Shown in pieces: positions 334 to 13,059 of a stretch of 32,000 nt of DNA. Origin of the DNA: Fibrobacter succinogenes subsp. succinogenes S85 (GTDB lineage Bacteria; Fibrobacterota; Fibrobacteria; Fibrobacterales; Fibrobacteraceae). How positions within the stretch are numbered: position 1 is the first letter of the stretch; each line of letters starts with the position of its first letter. Where the stretch lies: positions 3,810,001 through 3,842,000 of the forward strand of contig NC_017448.1 of NCBI RefSeq assembly GCF_000146505.1, read 5' to 3'. The notes under the pieces are model-generated. The model was not told the origin of the DNA. It did not search any database and was given only the letters and a program-made list of their open reading frames with translations. A program made the translations under genes and the position numbers.

Positions 334-340
334 AATAGTC

Positions 341-396
341 GCACCGTAGGTGCCAAACTAAAATCTACTGACTAATGACTATTGACTAGTGACCTA
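341..396 (+). repeat. Intergenic repeat copy A: GC hairpin (GCACC-gta-GGTGC), then CAAACTAAAATCTACTGACTAA, then four 7-nt-spaced GACTA units
   Basis: A 22-nt block is identical to 1630-1651. GACTA occurs at 370, 377 and 384, and GACCTA at 391 (period 7). The element starts 8 nt after the upstream stop codon. Confidence 0.75.
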
Positions 397-519
397 TTAC
401 AAACAACTAAGTTCTATATAATACATTCTGACTTTTTTTGGTGTAGTTTTCCACGTCTACTCCCGTTTTCCTGCATTTTTGCTCTCGTTTTTCTGTAATC
501 ATTTTATAGTTTTATTTAC

Positions 520-1578
520 ATGAAAAATTTAGTCCAAACTCTTTTGCTTTCTTCGGTGGCGGCGTTGTTCGCATCGTGCAATAGCTCAACATCTGGTCCG
601 GAATCATTTCGGGAACCGATAAGTTACACTCCGGATGGCAAATGTACGATTGATATGTTAAAGTACAAAACTCAGGAACAGTTGGACTCGTTGCGTACTT
701 TTTGTGATACCATTTTTGTTCATAGTGTCTTGAATGTTTATAAGGACACTGTTTACGACGATACTTTGATTACAGGCAATGAAAAGTACACCAGCTTTAT
801 TTATTTTGATCGTTATACGGAAAAATACGATACACTTACTAAGCAAAGTGCTGCAAAAAGTGGGACTTCAGGCCCATGCGGTAGAGTTCCTGTTTATTGC
901 AATCTTGATTCCTCTGATACGCAAAAGACGTTTAGTTGCGAAATTTCCAGTGTGTGTTATATGTATAATCAGACAGATAATCTTGCAACGAGTTCTGCCG
1001 AGGTTGCTGTCGTTCGTTTAGATCCTGTATTAATAACGAATGAGCCACTGTGTTCTCAACCGGGGTATCGCTGTGTGCGTGATACTGTTTTCCATGATGT
1101 TCTTCATAAAACATATCGAACAATTGCTCGTGACACAACATTCTTGAATTATGGTCCAAGAGCTTGGACGGATTATGTTCCTGCCATCAATGCGCCCGCA
1201 TTTGATACGGTTACGTTCCGCAATGCGCTGGATACGCTTGACACGCAAAAGCCAATCTTTGGAATAGATACTTTGTTCTCAGGATATACCATTACGGTGG
1301 ATGGGTTGCCGGACTGGGCATCGAATAATACTAAATGTACGACGGTAGATTCTTCACGTATCTGTATTTATCAAGATATTCTTCGTCCAATATCAATGCT
1401 TACGACTTATCCAACGCTTTACAATAAAAAGCCATTCTATCTTTGGAATAATCTTGAATCGCCTTTGGAAAAAGACACTTTGATTACATGGAAATTGAGA
1501 TATAGATATTCCGGTGGTCATAATTTTGAAGGAAATCGCGACTCGTTAGAAATAACTACGCTCTTTAAGGGAATTTAG
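520..1578 (+). CDS. Hypothetical Cys-rich lipoprotein (352 aa)
   Basis: Long ORF with an N-terminal signal peptide and lipobox (LFASC). It is AT-rich. I recognise no family motif. Confidence 0.75.
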   Translation: MKNLVQTLLLSSVAALFASCNSSTSGPESFREPISYTPDGKCTIDMLKYKTQEQLDSLRTFCDTIFVHSVLNVYKDTVYDDTLITGNEKYTSFIYFDRYTEKYDTLTKQSAAKSGTSGPCGRVPVYCNLDSSDTQKTFSCEISSVCYMYNQTDNLATSSAEVAVVRLDPVLITNEPLCSQPGYRCVRDTVFHDVLHKTYRTIARDTTFLNYGPRAWTDYVPAINAPAFDTVTFRNALDTLDTQKPIFGIDTLFSGYTITVDGLPDWASNNTKCTTVDSSRICIYQDILRPISMLTTYPTLYNKKPFYLWNNLESPLEKDTLITWKLRYRYSGGHNFEGNRDSLEITTLFKGI

Positions 1579-1616
1579 ACTTTGGTCGTTGGTTAATAGT
1601 CAATGGTTTTATAACC

Positions 1617-1671
1617 GCGCCATTGGCGCCAAACTAAAATCTACTGACTAAAGACTAATGACTAATAACTA
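1617..1671 (+). repeat. Intergenic repeat copy B: GC hairpin (GCGCC-att-GGCGC), the same 22-nt block, then GACTA heptads
   Basis: GACTA occurs at 1646, 1653 and 1660, and AACTA at 1667. The hairpin differs from copy A by a paired A-T to G-C change. It lies 39 nt after the stop of the 520-1578 gene. Confidence 0.75.
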
Positions 1672-1689
1672 AATTGTTATATTAGCAGC

Positions 1690-1956
1690 ATGCTAAGTAC
1701 ATGTTCAATTTGCAAAAAGGAATTTAATGACAAGGTGGGGATGTCCCCGATGGAAAGTAACCTTGCCATCCGTTATCGCAATAAAATCGGCAATATTTGC
1801 CCCGATTGTCAGGCCGAAATCCGCAAGACCAAGCAGGGGCGGTGGCGCCTTTTCTTCTGGAATGTGAAGGTGGCTCTCTATTGCTTGCGATTCCTTGCGC
1901 TTTTTGCGCTCCCGTTTATTGCACTCGTTGTTGTTCTCGCTTTGTATGTATTGTAA
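1690..1956 (+). CDS. Small tail-anchored zinc-ribbon-like membrane protein (88 aa)
   Basis: Contains CxxC (CSIC) ... CxxC (CPDC), a basic linker and a C-terminal TM helix. The ATG lies exactly 6 nt after a TATATT box (1678-1683). There is no SD sequence. Confidence 0.55.
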   Translation: MLSTCSICKKEFNDKVGMSPMESNLAIRYRNKIGNICPDCQAEIRKTKQGRWRLFFWNVKVALYCLRFLALFALPFIALVVVLALYVL

Positions 1957-2107
1957 CTTGAACTTACTTATAGCTATTATTACCACTCAATAGTTGTTTA
2001 TCATTCGAGAAATGTTCTGGAAATATGGGAATGGAGGCTGTTCAGCTATTGCGAAATAAACTAAACATGAATAAGCCACAATTACAAAAAAGGACTAGGA
2101 AATAGGA

Positions 2108-2545
2108 ATGAAAAAAACAATAAATGTTATGAATCTTGTCGTTGCAACAATGATTTTTATGTGGATGGAAAGTCAAGATTTTTTTGTTCATTTTCTTGAT
2201 GTCCCTTATATGTATGGACAAGTTGAATTGTTGTATCTTATTATTCTTAATTTGGTATTGTTAAATGTTTTTGAATTATCGCCTAAAATTTCGCTTGTAT
2301 GCTCTGTTTTGATTATGTTGCTATTTCCGTTTACTGGAGGTCGATTCCGAGTTGACGGATGTAGTTACTATCTAGTTGTTGAAAAAATAATATGGAATAT
2401 TATCGGCGTTCGTTTTGTGCTTCCAAGTGATTTGACTTATTTTATTGCCTATAGTTTGGTTCCTACTATTATCTATAGCATGTATTTACTTCTGTTCATT
2501 TTTGGTGCTGTTGCTGTATTTAGGAAAATGAAGGCTAAAGCTTAA
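2108..2545 (+). CDS. Hypothetical polytopic membrane protein (145 aa, about 4 TM)
   Basis: ORF with four hydrophobic segments. A purine-rich AGGAAATAGGA sits just upstream of the ATG. Confidence 0.6.
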   Translation: MKKTINVMNLVVATMIFMWMESQDFFVHFLDVPYMYGQVELLYLIILNLVLLNVFELSPKISLVCSVLIMLLFPFTGGRFRVDGCSYYLVVEKIIWNIIGVRFVLPSDLTYFIAYSLVPTIIYSMYLLLFIFGAVAVFRKMKAKA

Positions 2546-2621
2546 TCCACATCTGGGTTTAATACGATTCGTTGGTGTAATCTGCCTATTGATGTTGTGT
2601 CAAACATCTAAAATAGTTGCC

Positions 2622-2819
2622 ATGAGAATATTTATATTTATTTTATTTCTTCTTGTGTTGCTAGGATGCTCACAAAGTGATGACGAAGCTCCAATTCAGA
2701 TTGAAAACGCAAATTATATATTTGGTGTTGGAAAAAGGAGAACATCTTATTTAGAGGTATCAAATAAGTGTATTATTGTTGAAATTGATTTTCCAGAATT
2801 TAATCTATGCAAACAATAA
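2622..2819 (+). CDS. Small hypothetical lipoprotein (65 aa)
   Basis: The internal ATG at 2622 gives MRIFIFILFLLVLLGCSQSD, a signal peptide plus lipobox LLGC. The upstream part of the tracked ORF (from TTG 2589) has no signal-peptide character. Confidence 0.5.
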   Translation: MRIFIFILFLLVLLGCSQSDDEAPIQIENANYIFGVGKRRTSYLEVSNKCIIVEIDFPEFNLCKQ

Positions 2820-2906
2820 TTCTATATTAACCTTATGCCTTGCGTTTCGTTACAGAGAGTGCCCCAGAAATTTCAGGAGGAATCTTCTGATTTGGAAATG
2901 TCGTAA
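2819..2906 (+). repeat. Approximately 85-nt repeat copy 1: TATATT box (2823-2828), 6 nt, then a 23-codon mini-ORF MPCVSLQRVPQKFQEESSDLEMS (2835-2906)
   Basis: About 85% identical, without gaps, to 7257-7340. It starts at the stop codon of the preceding gene and lies in the 5' region of the 2948 gene. Confidence 0.7.
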
Positions 2907-2947
2907 TTAAAGTGGGAAATTTTTGCAATTGAGAGGATGCTTACAAA

Positions 2948-3985
2948 ATGAAGTTGTGGAATAAATTGCTGAAAGTTTTTATTTTGTTTTCAGTGCTTAG
3001 TCTTTTGGGGTGTTTAAAAGATCAAAACATGCAAACAAAAGAAATTATAATTTTAAATTACAGAATAATTCCCCTAGATGTTTTTGTAAAAAACGAGGAT
3101 TCTATTTCTGTATTGGGGTATAGATTTTCAGACCTAGATGGTTATGCTTTTGTTCCTGTGACATTAAATTCTAATGATGATGGAAAAACTTGGAATTTGA
3201 AAGTATTTCCTGATGCAAAAAATATGCCTCGTTTTTTTCGGTACTCAAAGTATATTTTTTTATATAATTATGAGAAAGAAAAAACAAAAGCTTCTGTTTA
3301 TATATCAGAGGATTCTGGGAATTCATGGAACTTGTTTGGAGAACAGGAACTACTCAATAGTGAAATGCCGATATTTGGCAATCTAGATGAAAAAAATCCT
3401 GAAGTTCATCAGATTAATAAAGTTATAGCTGATGATTCTTGGTATGTTGAGGAAAAACCTTTATATACAAATTTTATAGTTCGTAAAGGAAATCCTGCTT
3501 TTACATCACAAGTTGGGCGCATTAATCGTTTTGATGGCTCGTCCACTATTATTGATGTGAAACAAGATCTTCATTCTACATTGATGTTTTATGATGAAGA
3601 GAATTATTGGATTTTAGGAAAAATATATCGTTCGGAACCTCGAAAAGCGAGCATAGTTCTTCTTAAATCTAATGGAAATCATGTTGAAAAGATTGGTGAA
3701 TGGCGTAATTTGTCAGGCTCTAAGCATGCCTCAGATTCTCCAAAAGCAATTTTGGTGACGGATGAAATAATTGCATTTGCTGTTACGGGACCATTTTTGT
3801 CAGGTCCGACCGTATTAAGATATAGCATAGATAAAGGCTCTCATTGGGAAGAAATAGAACTGCCTACATCAGAAACCGTGCAACTTTCTTATGATGATAT
3901 AAATAAGAAGTTAGTTGTAGCGCTTGCGGATCAGCTTTATTTCCGATATATTGAAATAGCTATAGGGAGCATATTGATGAGATAG
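2948..3985 (+). CDS. Asp-box (BNR) repeat lipoprotein, probable beta-propeller (345 aa)
   Basis: Signal peptide plus lipobox (SLLGC). Asp-box-like motifs are SNDDGKTW, SEDSGNSW and SIDKGSHW. GAGAGGA lies upstream of the ATG. Confidence 0.8.
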   Translation: MKLWNKLLKVFILFSVLSLLGCLKDQNMQTKEIIILNYRIIPLDVFVKNEDSISVLGYRFSDLDGYAFVPVTLNSNDDGKTWNLKVFPDAKNMPRFFRYSKYIFLYNYEKEKTKASVYISEDSGNSWNLFGEQELLNSEMPIFGNLDEKNPEVHQINKVIADDSWYVEEKPLYTNFIVRKGNPAFTSQVGRINRFDGSSTIIDVKQDLHSTLMFYDEENYWILGKIYRSEPRKASIVLLKSNGNHVEKIGEWRNLSGSKHASDSPKAILVTDEIIAFAVTGPFLSGPTVLRYSIDKGSHWEEIELPTSETVQLSYDDINKKLVVALADQLYFRYIEIAIGSILMR

Positions 3986-4019
3986 ACTAATCGTATGAAT
4001 TGGATTCTAGGAAAATAAT

Positions 4020-4976
4020 ATGTTCAGATTTATAATGAAATATTCATGTTTGACCGAAATTAGACTTACGAAATTTGGCAAAATGATTTTTGCTGTCGGT
4101 TGCCTGTTTCCTATTGGAATTGCGATTCTTGTTCCGTTGCTTCTTTTATGCGGAATGAAGGTTAGGGAAATAGATGAAAGATGGATTAATGAAGGTGTTT
4201 CAGATGTATTTGAAAAAAAGTCTTTTTCATATGATAAAGTAATTGTGTTTGCCAATGAAGTGACAATAAAGGATCATGCAAAGCAATACTCCATTATCGG
4301 ATACTTGGGAAAACAACGGCGGGTAAGTTTGAATACAAACGATGACGGTAAAACCTGGACGTTGACAGGTGCTGACACGGCAGTGTATTTTAATGAAAAA
4401 AAAGATGAATGGAATAATTTTGGCGATGCCGTTTTAGGAGGAAAGTTTGGAGAAATATACGTGAGTAAACAAGATTCTTTTTCAAACGAAAAAACGATTA
4501 TATTAGAAGAATTGAATGGTCCCAGTTCAAATTTGTCCGGCTATTGTCAAAGATGGGGAAAAATGTATGCCCAAAATAGCAACGACTGGGTTGTTTGTGG
4601 ATATGATGATGCGCCATCGTCAATCCATGAAGTTCGTATTATACATAGATCAGAAGGTGTATTTAAACTCCATACATCTTTTCCAAATAAATGGCACTTT
4701 TTTCGTTTAGAATATATGAAGCCATCGGATTTCTTTGTTAAAGGAAATCTAATGATTGGAATTTTTAGATTTCATATAGGAACAGGAACTTTACTTCACT
4801 ATCTATATTATAGCGTTAATGGGGGAGAAACATGGGAAAATGAAAAAATACCAGTTTTTTCACACGAACGCTTGTTGGTGACAAAAGATTCAATTGTTGT
4901 TCTCGGAATAACGGAAATACACGATGAAAAAAGGGCGAATGTCACCATTCTCTCAATGCCGATACCGAAAGAATAA
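4020..4976 (+). CDS. Asp-box (BNR) repeat protein with an N-terminal membrane anchor; paralog of 2948-3985 (318 aa)
   Basis: N-terminal TM (MIFAVGCLFPIGIAILVPLLLL). Motifs TNDDGKTW and SVNGGETW occur in the same relative positions as in the upstream paralog. The start is uncertain (4020, 4035 or 4083). Confidence 0.75.
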   Translation: MFRFIMKYSCLTEIRLTKFGKMIFAVGCLFPIGIAILVPLLLLCGMKVREIDERWINEGVSDVFEKKSFSYDKVIVFANEVTIKDHAKQYSIIGYLGKQRRVSLNTNDDGKTWTLTGADTAVYFNEKKDEWNNFGDAVLGGKFGEIYVSKQDSFSNEKTIILEELNGPSSNLSGYCQRWGKMYAQNSNDWVVCGYDDAPSSIHEVRIIHRSEGVFKLHTSFPNKWHFFRLEYMKPSDFFVKGNLMIGIFRFHIGTGTLLHYLYYSVNGGETWENEKIPVFSHERLLVTKDSIVVLGITEIHDEKRANVTILSMPIPKE

Positions 4977-5006
4977 TCCTATATTAAAATTATGTCCTAC
5001 TGAAAG

Positions 5007-5521
5007 ATGAATCCTTCATTAATTATATATGCCCTATTAACCCTCCTTCTCGCGGCATGCTCCAGCGAGGATGGGCCTGTGAAAACGGCCTGTTCTGTGG
5101 CTCGTTAAAAAGGTGCCAAAAATTCTGCATGGACCCAAAAGACAGTTCGTATGTGATGCTTACAGGATACCAAATTTTTAAAGGTAATCCAAAAAAGGAA
5201 TTTAAAGAGTTTTTTCAGTTTGATTTTGAAGAATACGATGGCGGGATTACTTGGGTTAGTTCCGAAAATATTGCATGTACAGAAAGTGGTTATTCTATTG
5301 AAATGATAGTGGGGTTTCTCAGGGAGACAGTTTACACAATAGATATTGATCGAGACGGAAATGTATCTTCGTCCCCAAAAATTAAAGGATGCTTGCAGCT
5401 TTACGATATGGAATCTCATAAGCTGAAAAAAGTGGGGGACCACTGCAATGAGGTTTATTCTTCTTTTCCCAGGGATGAATTCTATCGATTTGTGCACAAT
5501 AGAACATCAGTTCAAGATTAA
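5007..5521 (+). pseudogene. Frameshifted lipoprotein gene, a third (short) Asp-box-like paralog
   Basis: ATG 5007 encodes MNPSLIIYALLTLLLAACSSEDG..., a perfect signal peptide and lipobox, and stops at TAA 5106-5108. The long ORF 5057-5521 continues in the -1 frame and has no signal peptide of its own. It contains YDGGITW. Confidence 0.6.
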
Positions 5522-5632
5522 TATTTAATTTTTAGCGTATGGTGGAATAACTAGTTTTTCTATTATACAGGTAGGATTGTAGAGTAAATCATAACGTCGG
5601 ATTGCTTACCAAAAGAAAGGTCTCCAATAACT

Positions 5633-6283
5633 ATGCGATTACTTATAATATTGACTTTGCTACTTTGTGTCCTTGCAAATTCTCGATCCTATACAGTATT
5701 TGCATTAAACGATGAATCTCGTTATTTCCGTCAGGATTCCGCCTTGATTGTTTCTTCAAAATTTATAGAAATAAAAACTCCTTTTGAAAAATCTATCATG
5801 GATAGAATTTTTTATGGAAAGACGCCTGTTCTTATAGATACGCTATCTAAGTTTGTAGAAAAAAAAGAATATGGACGATTGTTTGCTGATGGAAAGAACG
5901 TTTCGAGTCTATTTTATATTGATTCTATTTCTCTGGTTTATGATATAGGGGATTCATGCGAACAAGAGGATGGTTTCTGTACTGATTACGAAACTTTTAT
6001 TGGAATTGACGGAAGTTTGGTTTATGTCCAGACAGGGGACTTTATTAAACGTTCCGATCATCCGTATGATTGCGGTGATTTCTTAAAAAAAATATCGGCG
6101 CAATATTTTCTTGTGAAATCTGATTTTTATTACAAAAAGTTTTATAATGAAGATTTTCTAATTACGAATAAGAAAATGAAATCTCGTCGAGGTTTCAGTT
6201 GCAGGGGCTGGGTCGGTTTCCCTTTGAATGAGTTTGGAAAAGAAGAGATTGATTTTTTGAAAAAACTTGAGAAAACGCCATGA
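5633..6283 (+). CDS. Hypothetical secreted protein (216 aa)
   Basis: N-terminal signal peptide (MRLLIILTLLLCVLANS). Its stop overlaps the next start (ATGA). Confidence 0.7.
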   Translation: MRLLIILTLLLCVLANSRSYTVFALNDESRYFRQDSALIVSSKFIEIKTPFEKSIMDRIFYGKTPVLIDTLSKFVEKKEYGRLFADGKNVSSLFYIDSISLVYDIGDSCEQEDGFCTDYETFIGIDGSLVYVQTGDFIKRSDHPYDCGDFLKKISAQYFLVKSDFYYKKFYNEDFLITNKKMKSRRGFSCRGWVGFPLNEFGKEEIDFLKKLEKTP

Positions 6284-7224
6284 TGAAAAGAATAGTCTTG
6301 CTTCTACTGTTTTGCTTTTTTTCTGTTTTTGCAGAAGGTAAAAATATTCAATGCGGGTTTATACCTTGTCAAATCAAGGATGCCGAGGCAATCTCTTTTT
6401 GGTGGAATCGAATTGCTTTTTCTAGAATCTCACAAGAATATGTGTTTGGCAGGTATTTCGAAGCCATCTTTGATACGTTTATACGGACCGATTTTGATAC
6501 TGAAAGTATAGAAAGTTTTCGATCTATAGACCATAAGTTTATTCACACGATAACAAAAAGTTGGTCGAGTCCTCTCGAGTTGGACGAAGTCAAAAAATCA
6601 AAAGACAAAAAATTTATTTTACGGCAACCTGTAGCAGAATGGTCTCAGTTATATATTTTGTCAAAGGAAGTAAAAGAAATTGAGCAATTTTTGAAAAAAG
6701 TTGTTTCTGAACACGAAATTTTGAATGCGGATTCTCTTATGCGGGATTTTGTCAAAAAAAGGCCCGCATATGTCAAAAAAGCAGTGAGGTCGGAAGAAGA
6801 ATTTTACGCAAAAATTCTACAGTATTTGGATTCGGCTAAAACATTGGATGGTTTATCGAAAAAAATTTCTCCTCCAAAGATAAATACTCGAGATGGATTG
6901 TTGGTGGTTAATAACGAGCTTTTGAAAATGGCTGTATTGGGTTCTGATTCCTTGGATGTGGATTCCTTGTTTCGCTATGTTAGCATGATACCTCCAAACA
7001 AGGGTTCAACGGCTTGCATTGATTATCTGATGAAGCTTAATTCGAAATTTTTGTTTGTCAAATTTGGGAGAGATCCCTTGTCTTGTGATGATTCAAAGCC
7101 CTGGATAGCCATCAGTAAAAAAGCCCTTACACCGGAAGAAAGAGCATTTTTAGATGGCATTGTGAAAGTACCTTTAGCACCGTTGAACGAAACAGGAAAA
7201 CTCATCATTCGTAAGAATTTGTAA
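6280..7224 (+). CDS. Hypothetical secreted protein (314 aa)
   Basis: Signal peptide MMKRIVLLLLFCFFSVFAEG. A 4-nt ATGA overlap with the upstream gene indicates translational coupling. Confidence 0.7.
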   Translation: MMKRIVLLLLFCFFSVFAEGKNIQCGFIPCQIKDAEAISFWWNRIAFSRISQEYVFGRYFEAIFDTFIRTDFDTESIESFRSIDHKFIHTITKSWSSPLELDEVKKSKDKKFILRQPVAEWSQLYILSKEVKEIEQFLKKVVSEHEILNADSLMRDFVKKRPAYVKKAVRSEEEFYAKILQYLDSAKTLDGLSKKISPPKINTRDGLLVVNNELLKMAVLGSDSLDVDSLFRYVSMIPPNKGSTACIDYLMKLNSKFLFVKFGRDPLSCDDSKPWIAISKKALTPEERAFLDGIVKVPLAPLNETGKLIIRKNL

Positions 7225-7256
7225 TATTTTTTAACTGCTTACGGTTGAAAAAATAG

Positions 7257-7340
7257 TCCTATATTAACTCTATGCCCTGCGTTTCATTACAGAGAAAACC
7301 CAAAAAATTTCAGGAGGAATCTTCTGATTTAGAAACGCAG
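7257..7340 (+). repeat. Approximately 85-nt repeat copy 2: TATATT box (7260-7265), 6 nt, then ATG 7272 mini-ORF (here open for 52 codons to 7430)
   Basis: Collinear with 2819-2906. The first 21 codons are shared: 3 synonymous third-position changes, with all non-synonymous changes confined to 2 codons. It lies upstream of the dxs-like gene. Confidence 0.7.
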
Positions 7341-7446
7341 CTGCTTGAGTTGGTGGTTGGCTTTATTTGTCAACCATTGAAAAATTTTTTTGCGAAACTT
7401 TTTGTATATATTACTAAAGGTCACCTTTAAAAATAGTTTGGTTCCT

Positions 7447-9195
7447 ATGCTCCTAGAAAAAATCAAGTCCCCTGCCGACGTGAAAGCGTTGGACATCAAG
7501 AGTCTCGAACAGCTTGCCGCCGAAATGCGCACAGCACTCCTTAAAAAGCTTTCTAAGCGTGGCGGTCACGTGGCGCCGAACCTCGGATTTGTAGAAGGGA
7601 CGATTGCGCTCCACTACGTTTTCGATTCTCCGAGGGACAAGATTGTCTATGACGTGAGCCACCAGAGCTACAGCCACAAGATGCTCACGGGTCGTGCCCA
7701 GGCATTCTTGGAAGAATCGCATTATGGCGATGTGACGGGCTATAGCGAACCGACCGAAAGTGAACACGATTTTTTCATGGTGGGGCATACCTCTACGTCG
7801 GTGAGCCTTGCGCTTGGCCTTGCAACTGCGCGCGATGTGTTGCGTGAATCGGGCAATGTGATTGCTGTAATTGGTGACGGTTCCTTGAGCGGTGGCGAAG
7901 CGTTTGAAGGTCTTGATAATGCTGGCGAATACGCTACGAATTTTATCGTTGTGGTGAACGATAACGAAATGTCCATTGCCGAAAACCACGGTGGTCTTTA
8001 CAAGTCTTTGGCGGAACTCCGCACGACTGCGGGCAAGTCCGAAAACAATTACTTTAAGTCGCTTGGCTTTGATTACAAGTATCTTGAACAAGGTAATGAT
8101 ATCGCTTCGCTCATTGAAATTTTCAAGTCCGTGAAAAATTCGACGCGCCCGGTCGTGGTGCATCTGCATACGCAAAAAGGCCGTGGCTATTCCTATGCCG
8201 AACAGAACCGCGAAGGCTGGCATTGGGCGGCTCCGTTCAATATCGAAACTAGCGAAATCAACTGGGGTAGTGGCGAAAATTACGGTGAAATTCTCGGCCT
8301 TTACCTCATGGCAAAAATCAAGAGTGATCCGAAGGTTGTCGTGATCCATTCTGCTGTTCCGGCGGGAATAGGCTTCTATGAAGCTCGACGTAAAGAGGCT
8401 GGCAAGCAGTACATAGATGTGGGTATCGCTGAAGAACATGCGGTGGCTCTTGCATCCGGGCTTGCAAAGGGTGGCGCTAAGCCGATTTATAGTACGCATG
8501 GAACATTCATCCAGCGTACGTACGACCAGCTTTCGCAAGACTTGTGCGCGAACAATAATCCCGCTACGATTCTCGTGACGATGTCTGGTGCCGATGGCAT
8601 GAACGATACGACGCACCTCTGCATCTTTGATATCCCGATGCTTTCGAACATCCCGAATTTGGTTTATCTTTGCCCGACATGCGTCGAAGAATTCAAGACG
8701 ATGGCGGACTGGGCGATTGACCAGACGGAACATCCGGTGGCGATTCGCGTGCCGAACGCTGTACATCACCGCAGCGATATTTTCGAGAAGGATTACTCCA
8801 GACTCAACAAGTTTAAGGTCGTGCATCGTGGCGAGCGTGTGGCATTGATCGGTCTTGGCGATTTCTACCAGCGGGCCGCAGCTGTGGCGCTTGAACTGCG
8901 TCGCGAAGGCATTGATGCAACGCTTGTGAATCCGCGTTATGCAAGCGGTGTGGATAAGGACTTGCTTTTGGAACTTGCAAAGACTCACGATGTGTTTGTC
9001 ACGCTCGAAAATGGCGTGATCGAGGGTGGTTTTGGTCAAAAAGTTGCGACAGCTCTTGGTGATACTTGCGCGAAGGTGCTTGTGCGCGGGCTTTCCAAGG
9101 AGTTCTACGACAAGGTGAGCTTTGCGGATCTCTGTGAGAAAAATCACTTGAATCCATCGCAGGTCGCAAAAGACGTGATGCAGCTCCTATCGTAA
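7447..9195 (+). CDS. dxs: 1-deoxy-D-xylulose-5-phosphate synthase family protein (divergent subtype)
   Basis: The N-terminus MLLEKIKSPADVKALDIKSLEQLAAEMR...GGHVAPNLG and the ThDP motif GDGSLSGGEAFEGLDNAG...VVVNDNEMSI match the DXS architecture. However, it has VSHQSYSHK and GHTSTS where canonical DXS has VGHQAYxHK and GHSSTS. I prefer ATG 7447 to the tracked TTG 7390. Confidence 0.8.
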   Translation: MLLEKIKSPADVKALDIKSLEQLAAEMRTALLKKLSKRGGHVAPNLGFVEGTIALHYVFDSPRDKIVYDVSHQSYSHKMLTGRAQAFLEESHYGDVTGYSEPTESEHDFFMVGHTSTSVSLALGLATARDVLRESGNVIAVIGDGSLSGGEAFEGLDNAGEYATNFIVVVNDNEMSIAENHGGLYKSLAELRTTAGKSENNYFKSLGFDYKYLEQGNDIASLIEIFKSVKNSTRPVVVHLHTQKGRGYSYAEQNREGWHWAAPFNIETSEINWGSGENYGEILGLYLMAKIKSDPKVVVIHSAVPAGIGFYEARRKEAGKQYIDVGIAEEHAVALASGLAKGGAKPIYSTHGTFIQRTYDQLSQDLCANNNPATILVTMSGADGMNDTTHLCIFDIPMLSNIPNLVYLCPTCVEEFKTMADWAIDQTEHPVAIRVPNAVHHRSDIFEKDYSRLNKFKVVHRGERVALIGLGDFYQRAAAVALELRREGIDATLVNPRYASGVDKDLLLELAKTHDVFVTLENGVIEGGFGQKVATALGDTCAKVLVRGLSKEFYDKVSFADLCEKNHLNPSQVAKDVMQLLS

Positions 9196-12150: not shown

Positions 12151-13059
12151 ATGAAGTTTCTCGCAGCCCTAATTTTATTCCTTGTGGCTTGCGCATTTTC
12201 TGATAATACGCAATACGAATGGACTGATGAAAATGGCTGTTCGTATTGCCTTTATGGACGTATAGAAAATGGGAAATGCGTGCATCCCGCAAAGGAAAGT
12301 TGGGGTGGTTATTCTTCCTTTTTTTATTTATTGAAAACTAGAAAAATAGAAAATAATTTTTTCGTGGTTGATTATCCTTTCAGCCCGAAGTTCCATGTCT
12401 ATTGTGAAAATGAAGCCGATTATTGCAAGACGATAAACGATTCTATGGCTAAAAAGTTGATGCCGTCTTTGAAGGATCGAAAATCCTTGTGTAATGAACA
12501 ACGTAAAAAGACTGAAAATACGGGCATGTTTTACGATATGCCTATACCTCGTGAAGATGTAGAGTTCCGCTGCGATTTTGTGAAGTTTAATAATAAAAAA
12601 TCATTCCTTGAAGTTTTGGATACTGGAATTTGCCCAGTTCGTGCGAATGCAGGCTTAATGGGGAGCCAGCGTACAAAGACTTTTTTATGGGGTAATTTTA
12701 ATGTGGTAAAGAGAAAGGGTGAGTTTTGGATAGATGATGATCAACTCTTTCTTCAATCAACTGATCGTCAACAGCGTCAAATAAAAAAATTTGTTGTTAG
12801 GAAAGCCTTTTTTACCCTCGGCGAATGTTCCCTTTCAAATTGCGAAATTCTGAATTATGTCGGAGAACAACTTCAGGATTTCGATATCAAATGCAACTTT
12901 ATTAAAAAGAAGGATAACGAGGGGAATGTGACAGTCCTTGCAGAGGGCGTTTGCCCCATAGAAATCTTGGATAAGGACGGCAAAAAGCAGGTATATCGAG
13001 TACGCTCCGTTAAAGACGGTGACTCCTATAAACTGATAATGACCAATAAGCAAAAATAA
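12151..13059 (+). CDS. Hypothetical Cys-rich lipoprotein with an internal duplication, embedded in the rib operon
   Basis: Lipobox LVAC. It is AT-rich compared with its neighbours and starts 3 nt after the ribD stop. The internal repeat is FRCDFVKFNNKKSFLEVLDTGICPV versus IKCNFIKKKDNEGNVTVLAEGVCPI. Confidence 0.75.
   Translation: MKFLAALILFLVACAFSDNTQYEWTDENGCSYCLYGRIENGKCVHPAKESWGGYSSFFYLLKTRKIENNFFVVDYPFSPKFHVYCENEADYCKTINDSMAKKLMPSLKDRKSLCNEQRKKTENTGMFYDMPIPREDVEFRCDFVKFNNKKSFLEVLDTGICPVRANAGLMGSQRTKTFLWGNFNVVKRKGEFWIDDDQLFLQSTDRQQRQIKKFVVRKAFFTLGECSLSNCEILNYVGEQLQDFDIKCNFIKKKDNEGNVTVLAEGVCPIEILDKDGKKQVYRVRSVKDGDSYKLIMTNKQK

What the first reader, a model, noticed from the sequence alone, without database searches (positions are those of the whole stretch)
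334..7446. AT-rich, mobility-gene-free island of about 9 exported or membrane proteins with no recognisable function
About 7 kb between a transporter gene and a dxs-like gene shows a sharp drop in GC. Spot counts of 60-nt lines give about 22-32% here and about 50-65% downstream.

Every gene is on the + strand, and every product carries a lipobox, a signal peptide or TM segments. The products are:
- a Cys-rich lipoprotein
- a tail-anchored zinc-ribbon protein
- a 4-TM protein
- a 65-aa lipoprotein
- three Asp-box paralogs
- a translationally coupled pair of secreted proteins

I see no integrase, transposase, tRNA or phage gene. Instead there are two families of intergenic repeats.

This architecture resembles islands of fast-evolving cell-surface proteins, or immunity-type / interbacterial-defence gene arrays. 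No toxin, secretion-system or known immunity domain is recognisable, so the function is open. This is the most likely place in the window for an undescribed system.
Basis: partly seen in the sequence, partly recalled or inferred. Interest (0 to 1): 0.7.

Follow-up and report, generated by a model that had tools for sequence, protein, structure and literature searches.

The report
Toxin-less immunity gene array in Fibrobacter
The AT-rich stretch upstream of dxs in Fibrobacter succinogenes S85 is mostly a strain-variable array of exported "antidote" (immunity) genes left over from Rhs/Tc-type toxin cassettes, which is a known kind of bacterial self-defence locus, here made of previously unnamed protein families.

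Summary
The window is Fibrobacter succinogenes S85 (CP001792). The AT-rich, all-plus-strand, mobility-gene-free region is real: GC is 0.354 against 0.504 for the rest of the window. It is composite.

- g1 (lipoprotein) and g2 (Zn-ribbon protein) are syntenic native genes in many relatives.
- 1960-7442 (g3-g9) is a variable insert. The closest relative lacks it, and another relative has part of it swapped.

In that relative, the g5-g7 slot holds an orphan Rhs C-terminal toxin (TIGR03696 core end plus tip). The toxin's first 21 codons and upstream box are the S85 "intergenic repeat".

In rumen metagenomes, homologs of g5, g6 and g8/g9 sit directly downstream of full-length SpvB-TcdB-RHS toxins or leader-bearing orphan toxins. 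They co-vary with the toxin-tip family. S85 keeps these genes under purifying selection (dN/dS 0.16-0.38) but has no toxin core or tip here. g7 is a deletion pseudogene and g4 is internally deleted.

Verdict: a heterogeneous polyimmunity (orphan immunity) locus. It is a new member of a known kind, built from unnamed immunity families. One unexplained feature is the conserved cassette "leader". Interest is moderate.

The parts
335..393 (+). D3 repeat, copy 1 (downstream of eamA). It has the hairpin GCACC-GTA-GGTGC, then CAAACTAAAATCTAC, then tandem TGACTAA heptamers. It is not part of the immunity array.
   Evidence: The hairpin arms show a compensatory change between the two copies (read).
520..1578 (+). 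g1: a 352-aa Cys-rich lipoprotein (ACX76305). It is a syntenic, fast-evolving native gene and not part of the variable insert.
   Evidence: Present upstream of dxs in 10 relatives at 53-93% identity. dN/dS is 0.15-0.32. GC3 is 0.35. No family match.
1611..1669 (+). D3 repeat, copy 2 (between g1 and g2). It is absent from the closest relative, L008.
1690..1956 (+). g2: an 88-aa CxxC...CxxC zinc-ribbon protein with a C-terminal TM helix. It is a native gene that lies directly upstream of dxs in relatives lacking the insert.
   Evidence: Identity is 64-100% in relatives. g2 is 25-26 nt from dxs in L015 and L018. GC3 is 0.55. A sub-threshold full-length match to TIGR04104. dN/dS is 0.12.
1960..7442 (+). 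Variable insert: the toxin-less immunity gene array (5.48 kb, GC 0.341).
   Evidence: Replaced by 121 nt in L008, whose dxs is 97% identical. Partly different content in L030. GC.
2108..2545 (+). g3: a 145-aa multi-TM protein (ACX76307) at the head of the array. An immunity role is inferred only from its position.
   Evidence: Found with g4 ahead of the first leader in L030, L063 and L064. dN/dS is 0.16. No toxin partner was found.
2622..2819 (+). g4: a 65-aa lipoprotein, an internally deleted form of a 131-aa lipoprotein.
   Evidence: 168 nt present in L030 (6853-7019) are missing in S85. Full-length forms occur in L060 and L063. The partner is unknown.
2806..2906 (+). Leader relic 1: the TATATTAA box, an ATG at 2835 and 21 conserved codons (MPCVSLQRVPQKFQEESSDLE) of an orphan Rhs-CT cassette, truncated at +63. 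It is possibly a promoter for g5 and g6.
   Evidence: Aligns with the start of the L030 orphan toxin. Homology with L030, L060, L063 and L077 breaks at 2898. The block shared with L073 starts at 2806.
2948..3985 (+). g5: a 345-aa Asp-box lipoprotein (ACX76308), probably a beta-propeller. Predicted immunity protein for toxin-tip family A.
   Evidence: An 86% identical homolog overlaps the stop codon of a full-length Rhs gene in L087 and L088. The family is narrow, with 8 clusters. PF15902 scores 25 bits against a cutoff of 33. A low-confidence model matches only beta-propellers. dN/dS is 0.20.
4020..4976 (+). g6: an Asp-box protein with an N-terminal TM anchor (ACX76309; the likely true start is 4083). 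Predicted immunity protein for toxin-tip family A.
   Evidence: A 40% identical homolog directly follows the full-length TcB-TcC toxin in L053 and L054 (E 4e-77). A 90% identical homolog follows a leader-core-tip orphan in L058, L059 and L070. dN/dS is 0.33-0.38.
4967..4998 (+). Leader fragment 2: the TATATTAA box plus an ATG and two codons. The rest has been lost.
   Evidence: Homology with L059 ends at 4987.
5007..5521 (+). g7: a pseudogene. The signal peptide of a 378-aa Fib_succ_major lipoprotein is fused out of frame to the last ~149 codons of a 454-aa paralog (a 2.0-kb deletion).
   Evidence: Both parent genes are intact in L073. The deletion junction is at 5068/5072. The frames were read.
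5633..6283 (+). g8: a 216-aa secreted protein (Fisuc_2728). Predicted immunity protein for toxin-tip family B, together with g9.
   Evidence: It follows family-B tips in L030, L077, L069 and L078. In L083 the gene after the tip begins with a g8-like signal peptide before the locus ends. dN/dS is 0.26-0.36.
6280..7224 (+). g9: a 314-aa secreted protein (FSU_3299), translationally coupled to g8. Predicted immunity protein for toxin-tip family B.
   Evidence: g9-family genes follow family-B tips in L030, L077, L069, L078, L053-L056 and L065. The family is narrow. dN/dS is 0.16-0.23.
7247..7430 (+). Terminal leader relic 3: the box, an ATG at 7272 and a 52-codon ORF. Its 3' part forms a terminator-like hairpin (7350-7380 plus a T-run).
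   Evidence: The same terminal form abuts dxs in L030, L068, L072, L075, L077 and L079.
7398..7413 (+). Conserved promoter-like box CTTTTTGTATATATTA upstream of dxs. It marks the right edge of the insert.
   Evidence: Conserved in front of dxs in L008, L012, L014, L016 and L019.
7447..9195 (+). dxs-like gene, the native right flank.
   Evidence: PF13292 E 6e-83. Used as the anchor.

Best explanation
Window 1960-7442 is a heterogeneous polyimmunity (orphan immunity) array. It sits between two native genes, g2 and dxs.

Origin. The array descends from the orphan-cassette arrays that lie downstream of Tc-type Rhs toxins (SpvB-TcdB-RHS fusions partnered with a TcA-like protein) in rumen Fibrobacter. 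In those arrays each cassette has four parts:
- a conserved leader (a TATATTAA box, an ATG and about 32 codons);
- a variable length of GC-rich Rhs core end;
- an AT-rich toxin tip;
- one or two AT-rich immunity genes.

What S85 retains. In S85 every core and tip has been deleted. What remains is the immunity genes and three leader relics:
- g5 and g6 are Asp-box, probably beta-propeller, proteins anchored by a lipobox or a TM helix. They match tip family A.
- g8 and g9 are a coupled pair of secreted proteins. They match tip family B, which carries an HxH...SxxD motif.
- g3 and g4 probably belong to the array too.

Inferred mechanism.
- The products are exported to the periplasm or membrane. 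There they bind and neutralise toxin tips delivered by competing Fibrobacter strains, or by S85's own toxins if it has any elsewhere. This implies that the toxins act in the cell envelope.
- The leader relics probably supply promoters.
- The terminal relic supplies a terminator that insulates dxs.
- Array content changes by recombination and deletion whose end-points often fall at leader copies.

Shown: homology, synteny with toxins, co-variation with tip family, boundaries, composition and purifying selection.
Inferred: the protective function, the localisation, promoter activity and the recombination mechanism.
For: Source and boundaries: the window is S85. The insert is absent from L008 and partly swapped in L030.

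Toxin link:
- The L030 ORF in the g5-g7 slot matches TIGR03696 (Rhs_assc_core) at 44 bits against a cutoff of 32.5.
- Its start equals the S85 repeat.
- Its homologs are leader + core end + diverse tips, one of which is an Amidase_3 domain.
- A profile search places the core end closest to TcdB2-TccC3, E 5e-17.
- The main gene in L053 is SpvB + TcdB_midN + RHS and follows a TcA-like protein.

Immunity positions:
- g6 homologs follow a full-length toxin (E 4e-77) and orphan toxins (90% identity).
- A g5 homolog overlaps the stop codon of a full-length Rhs gene.
- g8/g9-family genes follow family-B tips in five different contexts, with tips 30-97% identical to the L030 tip.
- The tips ahead of g5 and g6 are homologous to each other, E 1e-26.

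Composition: Rhs core GC is 0.58-0.63, while tips and immunity genes are 0.29-0.35, matching the island.

Selection: dN/dS is 0.16-0.38.

Boundaries at leaders.

No toxin in S85 here: no core-end or tip hit anywhere in the window.
Against: - No protection assay exists, and no immunity family in Pfam, NCBIfam or PADLOC matches.
- g3 and g4 have no identified toxin partner.
- g7 is dead and g4 is truncated, so part of the array is decaying.
- I could not search the rest of the S85 genome, so whether the genes are truly orphan is untested.
- The toxin-tip model and the g5 model are low confidence, and the tip's activity is unresolved.
- Promoter function of the TATATTAA box is not shown. The sigma-70 scan was uninformative.
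Confidence: 0.8

Rival explanations
1. Genomic fossil. The segment is a decaying remnant of a former toxin locus with no present function. The ORFs persist only because too little time has passed.
For: The toxins are gone. g7 is a frameshifted deletion fusion. g4 has lost 168 nt. A 347-aa gene and 2.0 kb were deleted relative to L073. The leaders are truncated.
Against: g3, g5, g6, g8 and g9 are intact, with dN/dS of 0.16-0.38 across pairs with dS up to 0.55 (up to 1.45 for the distant g6 pair). Near-identical copies recur in dozens of contigs, in clusters of 44-130 members. The g8-g9 coupling is preserved.
Confidence: 0.1
2. The products are fast-evolving cell-surface proteins, such as adhesins or glycan-binding lipoproteins, involved in fibre or host interaction. 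Their linkage to toxins is coincidental.
For: All products are exported. g5 and g6 have Asp-boxes and a sialidase/sortilin-like propeller signal. The g7 parent genes carry the Fib_succ_major domain typical of Fibrobacter surface lipoproteins.
Against: Homologs sit immediately after toxin tips, even overlapping the stop codon. The family of the downstream gene tracks the family of the tip in several independent contexts. The families are very narrow, which is unlike general adhesins.
Confidence: 0.05
3. The products are accessory factors for toxin export, folding or activation rather than immunity proteins. In S85 they would then be useless leftovers, or serve toxins encoded elsewhere.
For: Classical Tc toxins that target eukaryotes need no immunity protein (general knowledge). 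Two genes (g8 and g9) follow a single tip, which is unusual for an immunity gene.
Against: S85 retains the genes under purifying selection without the adjacent toxin. Tip-specific co-variation is the hallmark of immunity genes as described by Zhang et al. 2012. Exported lipoprotein immunity has a precedent in Imm65 for Tox-JAB-1.
Confidence: 0.05

Closest known systems
Orphan rhs-CT/rhsI cassette arrays of Enterobacteria (Poole et al. 2011, PMC3150448; Koskiniemi et al. 2014, PMC3967940; Starsta et al. 2020, PMC7043789; found, details from my own knowledge)
   Same: In the relatives (L053, L059, L030), a main rhs gene is followed by cassettes of partial core + polymorphic tip + immunity gene. 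The core is GC-rich and the tips and immunity genes are AT-rich. Content differs between strains.
   Different: - S85 has no core or tip at this locus, only immunity genes and leader relics.
- The Fibrobacter cassettes each begin with a conserved leader that has its own ATG, joined to at least six different core positions.
- The delivery module is SpvB-TcdB (Tc type) rather than PAAR/VgrG-T6SS.
- The immunity proteins are exported.
Polyimmunity loci (Zhang, de Souza, Anantharaman, Iyer, Aravind 2012, PMC3482391)
   Same: Tandem, same-strand, closely spaced genes for unrelated immunity proteins. They are not interrupted by toxins, vary between strains, and are proposed as a pre-emptive defence against non-kin toxins.
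   Different: - There is no adjacent XerC/D recombinase.
- The immunity families are not among the named Imm families.
- Extended loci were reported only for Proteobacteria, Bacteroidetes, Firmicutes and Actinobacteria, so Fibrobacteres would be an additional lineage.
- Toxin-cassette leader relics show how this array arose.
Acquired interbacterial defence (AID / rAID) orphan immunity clusters of gut Bacteroidales (Ross et al. 2019, from memory; related preprint 10.1101/2025.05.03.651265 listed)
   Same: Arrays of orphan immunity genes in gut commensals, with conserved intergenic sequences and toxin-gene fragments. They are thought to protect against competitors' effectors.
   Different: Those arrays neutralise T6SS effectors and are associated with mobile elements or a tyrosine recombinase. 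Here the toxins are Tc/Rhs-type, and S85 has no recombinase or mobile element.
Tc (ABC) toxin complexes, e.g. Photorhabdus TcdB2-TccC3 (PDB 6h6e) and Yersinia YenC2
   Same: The toxins whose immunity genes S85 keeps have the SpvB-TcdB-RHS architecture, a TcA-like partner, and a core end most similar to TccC3.
   Different: Classical Tc toxins are insecticidal and have no immunity genes (general knowledge). The Fibrobacter versions carry tip-specific exported downstream genes, which implies a bacterial, envelope-level target. None of the toxin machinery is in the S85 window.
Integron gene-cassette arrays
   Same: Same-strand cassettes separated by a recurring element that contains an imperfect palindrome. 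The array sits beside housekeeping genes.
   Different: There is no IntI integrase. The repeat lies at the 5' end of each cassette, is translated and carries a start codon. There is no covariation support for an attC-like fold.

Membership tests
Rhs/TcC polymorphic toxin locus with orphan cassettes | A full-length toxin gene with RHS repeats and an Rhs-associated core end (TIGR03696 / PxxxxDPxG motif). | tested here: not met
   There is no core-end hit anywhere in the 32-kb window. The feature is met only in relatives: L053, L054, L083 and L087.
Rhs/TcC polymorphic toxin locus with orphan cassettes | Orphan modules made of a partial core plus a polymorphic C-terminal tip. | tested here: not met
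   S85 has only leader relics of 63 nt, 32 nt and about 100 nt, with no core or tip. Intact orphans are present in L030, L053, L058, L059, L060 and L063.
Rhs/TcC polymorphic toxin locus with orphan cassettes | A gene immediately downstream of each tip that co-varies with the tip family (the immunity position). | tested here: met
   This holds for homologs of g5, g6 and g8/g9 in other contigs.
Rhs/TcC polymorphic toxin locus with orphan cassettes | A GC-rich core contrasted with AT-rich tips and immunity genes. | tested here: met
   Core GC is 0.58-0.63. Tips and immunity genes are 0.29-0.35 in L053, L059 and L087. The S85 insert is 0.341.
Polyimmunity locus (Zhang et al. 2012) | Several tandem immunity genes in one orientation with short intergenic distances. 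| tested here: met
   g3-g9 are all on the + strand. Gaps range from a 4-nt overlap to about 130 nt.
Polyimmunity locus (Zhang et al. 2012) | Not interrupted by toxin genes or toxin cassettes. | tested here: met
   There is no core or tip homology in the window. Only non-toxic leader relics remain.
Polyimmunity locus (Zhang et al. 2012) | The number and type of immunity genes differ between strains. | tested here: met
   L008 has none. L030 and L077 have toxin + g8 + g9. L073 has extra genes. L072 and L075 have an IS element.
Polyimmunity locus (Zhang et al. 2012) | An adjacent XerC/D-type recombinase (frequent, not obligatory). | tested here: not met
   No recombinase family appears among the island products, and none among the genes called around the island in S85.
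Polyimmunity locus (Zhang et al. 2012) | The products actually neutralise cognate toxins. | not testable with these tools
   This needs co-expression or competition experiments.
Integron cassette array | An IntI integrase and attC recombination sites with a conserved folded structure. | tested here: not met
   There is no integrase. The leader palindrome has no covariation support: covariance term -0.10, z -2.3.
BNR/Asp-box beta-propeller (sialidase / sortilin-Vps10 type), for g5 and g6 | A profile match above threshold and a propeller fold. | tested here: inconclusive
   g5 scores 25.2 bits on PF15902 (cutoff 33). g6 scores 19.3 bits on PF02012 (cutoff 27). The g5 model has pLDDT 51, but all top Foldseek hits are propellers, with E about 5e-6 and TM 0.2-0.37.
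JAB/MPN-like toxin domain, for tip family B (in relatives only) | The HxH...SxxD metal site on an MPN fold. | tested here: inconclusive
   The motif HLHP...MFSxGD is conserved. The tip is modelled at pLDDT 62-87, but the best Foldseek E-value is 0.03. MPN proteins (Rpn8, Npl4, RadC) appear only among weak hits.

The most novel reading that the evidence does not exclude
The conserved leader may be a dedicated cassette-exchange and expression module. It consists of a TATATTAA box, an ATG and about 32 codons, and it contains the near-invariant palindrome TCAGGAG-N4-CTTCTGA. It heads every orphan cassette and also closes each array as a terminal relic.

On this reading it gives every toxin/immunity cassette its own promoter and start codon. 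It also provides the homology or recognition site by which cassettes are swapped, deleted and moved between chromosomal sites and strains. The S85 island would be one product of such an integron-like shuffling system that has no linked integrase, serving Tc-type toxins used for bacterium-against-bacterium warfare in the rumen.
Probability: 0.15. Interest if true: 0.65.

Novelty: new member of a known kind. Interest (0 to 1): 0.4.

Why it matters
- It gives a function to a block of S85 genes that public records annotate only as hypothetical proteins, a putative membrane protein, a 'BNR repeat protein' and an 'enterotoxin domain protein'.
- It defines at least three immunity families and two toxin-tip families that none of the domain libraries searched recognises.
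- It indicates that the main rumen cellulose degrader takes part in strain-level toxin warfare using Tc-type (SpvB-TcdB-RHS plus TcA) toxins.
- The immunity proteins are exported, which implies envelope-acting payloads. That is a testable and unusual role for a toxin class known mainly as insecticidal.
- It is also a clear example of how a polyimmunity locus arises from an orphan-cassette array by loss of the toxins.

Tried and rejected
- **Family libraries.** Pfam, NCBIfam, PADLOC and PHROGs scans of all nine products gave nothing above threshold.
- **RNA genes.** Rfam and tRNA scans found nothing.
- **Promoter scan.** The sigma-70 scan found fewer sites than in shuffled sequence, so it was uninformative.
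- **Phage or ICE origin.** Rejected for S85, which has no mobility genes here. IS3 elements do occur at the same site in L072/L075 and near the array in L086.
- **Leader as the N-terminus of full-length Rhs proteins.** Rejected. The complete 2238-aa L053 toxin starts differently. In an exhaustive HMMER search, 16 of the 18 hits carry the leader at residue 1 of short proteins of 52-218 aa. One carries it from residue 2 of a 45-aa protein. The remaining hit is a weak internal match in a 938-aa protein that is probably spurious.
- **Leader as a structured RNA or attC-like site.** There is no covariation, and the conserved palindrome overlaps my search bait.
- **Codon-position test on the leader.** Identities were 0.88, 0.89 and 0.81, which does not decide between protein-level and DNA-level constraint.
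- **g5 structure.** The model is low confidence.
- **g4 partner.** The sequence upstream of g4 in L060 is non-coding.
- **Literature.** Searches on the locus tags and on Fibrobacter Tc/Rhs toxins found no prior description of this locus.

Full report
**Source and observation**

The dxs-like protein of the window is encoded identically in Fibrobacter succinogenes subsp. succinogenes S85 (CP001792.1). Window base 1 corresponds to L002 position 2555, and the upstream genes are SMC and EamA.

The composition drop is real. GC is 0.354 for 334-7446, against 0.504 for 7447-32000. GC3 is 0.17-0.34 for g3-g9, against 0.52-0.69 for the flanking genes.

All plausible genes are on the + strand. There is no tRNA, no Rfam match and no recognisable integrase, transposase, phage or defence family.

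Two repeat families exist:
- D3 lies at 335-393 and 1611-1669.
- The second family lies at 2806-2898, 4967-4998 and 7247-7353. Its CTATATTAA core occurs nowhere else in the window, with 0.06 expected by chance.

**The region is composite**

I anchored on dxs and fetched 45 loci from one genome per species, then compared all island proteins with them.

- g1 (lipoprotein) and g2 (Zn-ribbon protein with a TM tail) are present and syntenic upstream of dxs in about ten genomes of the F. succinogenes clade. g1 is 53-93% identical and g2 is 64-100% identical. g2 has native GC3 (0.55), and in L015 and L018 it lies only 25-26 nt from dxs.
- g3-g9 are absent from the closest relative, L008 (dxs 97% identical). 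There, S85 1960-7442 is replaced by 121 nt.
- Other relatives carry a TraB/GumN lipoprotein gene in this slot, or nothing.

The variable unit is therefore 1960-7442, not 334-7446.

**The link to toxins**

L030 (dxs 96% identical) has g3, g4, g8 and g9. In place of g5-g7 it has a 270-aa ORF containing ...RWVSTDPTWLADGINLYAYVNGNPLSGVDPSG. This ORF matches TIGR03696, the RHS repeat-associated core domain, at 44 bits against a cutoff of 32.5. The match covers the last 44 positions of the profile.

Its first 21 codons (MRCVSLQRMPLKFQDESSDLE) and the TATATTAA box upstream are the S85 repeat. Homology between S85 and L030 breaks exactly at S85 2898, 63 nt into this 'leader', and resumes 4 nt before g8.

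Homologs of the ORF all share one design:
- the same leader;
- then a variable length of Rhs core end, joined at six or more different core positions;
- then different tips, one of which is a PF01520 peptidoglycan amidase.

A profile of this family matches the core end of Photorhabdus TcdB2-TccC3 best, with E 5e-17.

L053 contains a complete locus. In order, it holds:
1. a TcA-like 3316-aa protein;
2. a glycosyltransferase;
3. a 2238-aa SpvB + FG-GAP + TcdB_midN/midC + RHS protein;
4. two leader-bearing orphan cassettes with their downstream genes;
5. a terminal leader relic (followed by two small ORFs) next to a housekeeping gene.

**The S85 genes occupy immunity positions elsewhere**

- g6: a 40% identical full-length homolog (E 4e-77) directly follows the full-length toxin in L053 and L054. 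A 90% identical homolog follows a leader-core-tip orphan in L058, L059 and L070.
- g5: an 86% identical homolog overlaps the stop codon of a full-length Rhs gene in L087 and L088. The tips preceding g5 and g6 are themselves homologous, with 37% identity and E 1e-26. So two distantly related Asp-box proteins pair with two related tips.
- g8/g9: genes of this family follow tips of the L030 type (30-97% identical to the L030 tip) in L030/L077, L069/L078, L053-L056 and L065. In L083 the gene after the tip of a full-length 2237-aa toxin begins with a g8-like signal peptide before the locus ends.

This tip-specific co-variation is the operational definition of immunity genes in polymorphic toxin systems, as laid out by Zhang et al. 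2012.

The composition fits too. Rhs cores have GC 0.58-0.63, while tips and downstream genes have 0.29-0.35, the same as the S85 insert.

**State of the S85 array**

Neither a core end nor a tip is detectable anywhere in the window. S85 therefore keeps the immunity genes without the toxins.

Comparison with L073 shows that S85 is a reduced version of a larger block. L073 carries leader relic - g5 - 347-aa gene - g6 - two Fib_succ_major lipoproteins - g8 at a different chromosomal site. The shared block starts at S85 2806, the first base of leader 1. Relative to L073:
- S85 has lost the 347-aa gene. Its ATG now heads the annotated g6 ORF.
- S85 has lost 2.0 kb. This fuses a signal peptide out of frame to the last ~149 codons of the second lipoprotein, producing the pseudogene g7.
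- Separately, g4 has lost 168 nt relative to L030.

The intact genes are nevertheless under purifying selection, with dN/dS of 0.16-0.38 against 0.04-0.06 for dxs. They recur nearly unchanged in many contigs.

**Ends and signals**

The terminal leader relic (7247-7430) contains the strongest terminator-like hairpin of the region, at 7350-7380 plus a T-run. It is followed by the dxs promoter-like box CTTTTTGTATATATTA, which is conserved in relatives that lack the insert.

The same terminal form abuts dxs in L030, L068, L072, L075, L077 and L079, so this is a recurrent array site. In L072 and L075 an IS3 transposase lies beside it.

Breakpoints between related arrays fall at leader copies, at S85 2806, 2898, 4987 and 7353.

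**Proteins**

No library names any island product.

g5 and g6 have Asp-boxes and sub-threshold Sortilin-Vps10 / BNR matches. A low-confidence g5 model (pLDDT 51) matches only beta-propellers.

Tip family B conserves HHLSM, HTMG and HLHP...MFSxGD motifs. Its model is moderate (pLDDT 62-87 over the tip) and has no significant structural match. MPN/JAB folds appear only among weak hits.

The g5 and g9 families are narrow, with 8 and 12 clusters. Their members carry Fibrobacter labels or none, apart from a few MAG labels that may be binning errors.

**The leader**

The leader is not the N-terminus of the full-length L053 toxin. An exhaustive HMMER search found 18 hits:
- 16 carry it at residue 1 of short proteins of 52-218 aa;
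- one carries it from residue 2 of a 45-aa protein;
- one is a weak internal match in a 938-aa protein that is probably spurious.

Many leader-initiated ORFs of 270-801 aa are intact through the core into the tip.

The leader's most conserved part is the imperfect palindrome TCAGGAG-GAAT-CTTCTGA. There is no covariation support for a structure, and that segment was also my search bait. Codon-position conservation (0.88, 0.89, 0.81) does not decide between protein-level and DNA-level constraint. Its role as promoter, start module or recombination handle therefore remains an inference.

**Comparison and verdict**

The locus works like, and meets the tested criteria of, a heterogeneous polyimmunity locus as defined by Zhang et al. 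2012. It is tandem and same-strand, it is not interrupted by toxins, and it varies between strains. It lacks the frequently associated recombinase.

It is not itself an Rhs toxin locus, because the core and tip criteria fail in the window. It is derived from one.

That paper already lists Fibrobacteres among the lineages with TcdB/TcaC-type RHS toxins. I found no paper describing this locus or Fibrobacter immunity arrays.

The kind of system is known, however. The new elements are the immunity and toxin-tip families, the lineage, and the leader-bearing cassette design. Whether S85 carries cognate toxins elsewhere could not be tested.

Noticed in passing
window 12151-13059 (+): A 302-aa Cys-rich secreted or lipoprotein-like ORF with low GC (0.378; GC3 0.376) and no Pfam match. 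It is wedged between ribD and ribE of the riboflavin operon, making it a second AT-rich 'guest' gene in a housekeeping context.
   Followed up: partly
window 335-393 and 1611-1669: The D3 repeat flanks g1. It has a hairpin with a compensatory change (GCACC...GGTGC against GCGCC...GGCGC), then CAAACTAAAATCTAC, then 3-4 tandem TGACTAA heptamers. The second copy is absent from L008. Its function is unknown.
   Followed up: partly
leader copies, e.g. window 2870-2887 and 7307-7324: A near-invariant imperfect palindrome, TCAGGAG-GAAT-CTTCTGA, which also contains AGGAGG. It lies inside the translated leader of every orphan cassette. The arms are more conserved than the loop, but there is no covariation, and my search bait overlapped it.
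   Followed up: partly
L064 1214-1279: A metagenome contig in which the leader plus about 170 nt of Rhs core is followed by 59-63 nt that are about 90% identical to g2 codons 50-71. This is either a chimeric assembly or a recombination product.
   Followed up: no
L030 7172-7984: The orphan toxin ORF in this MAG is 270 aa, while P0001, which is identical over those 270 aa, is 327 aa. The L030 copy is truncated near its C-terminus and is probably inactive.
   Followed up: partly
L053 1-8939: A complete Tc-toxin-like locus in a rumen contig: a TcA-like 3316-aa protein, a UDP-glycosyltransferase and a TcB-TcC fusion. Exported immunity-type genes lie downstream, which suggests Tc toxins are used against bacteria.
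   Followed up: partly
L072 57-1135, L075 220-486, L086 38-1359: IS3-family transposase genes lie directly beside the terminal leader and dxs (L072, L075) or beside a g5-containing array (L086). Mobile elements therefore visit these arrays in some strains, though not in S85.
   Followed up: no
proteins P0003, P0034 and P0073: A family-B toxin (69% identical) and a g9 homolog (87% identical) carry NCBI labels from a Treponemataceae MAG, and a g3 homolog carries an 'archaeon' MAG label. This is either binning error or transfer between rumen taxa.
   Followed up: no
L009, L010, L013, L017, L026 (g2-dxs gap): In five relatives the same g2-dxs slot holds a 308-aa TraB/PrgY/GumN-family lipoprotein gene (PF01963, E 1e-60) with GC of about 0.41. 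The SMC-eamA gap also varies, from 1.6 to 4.9 kb. The whole neighbourhood is an insertion hotspot.
   Followed up: partly
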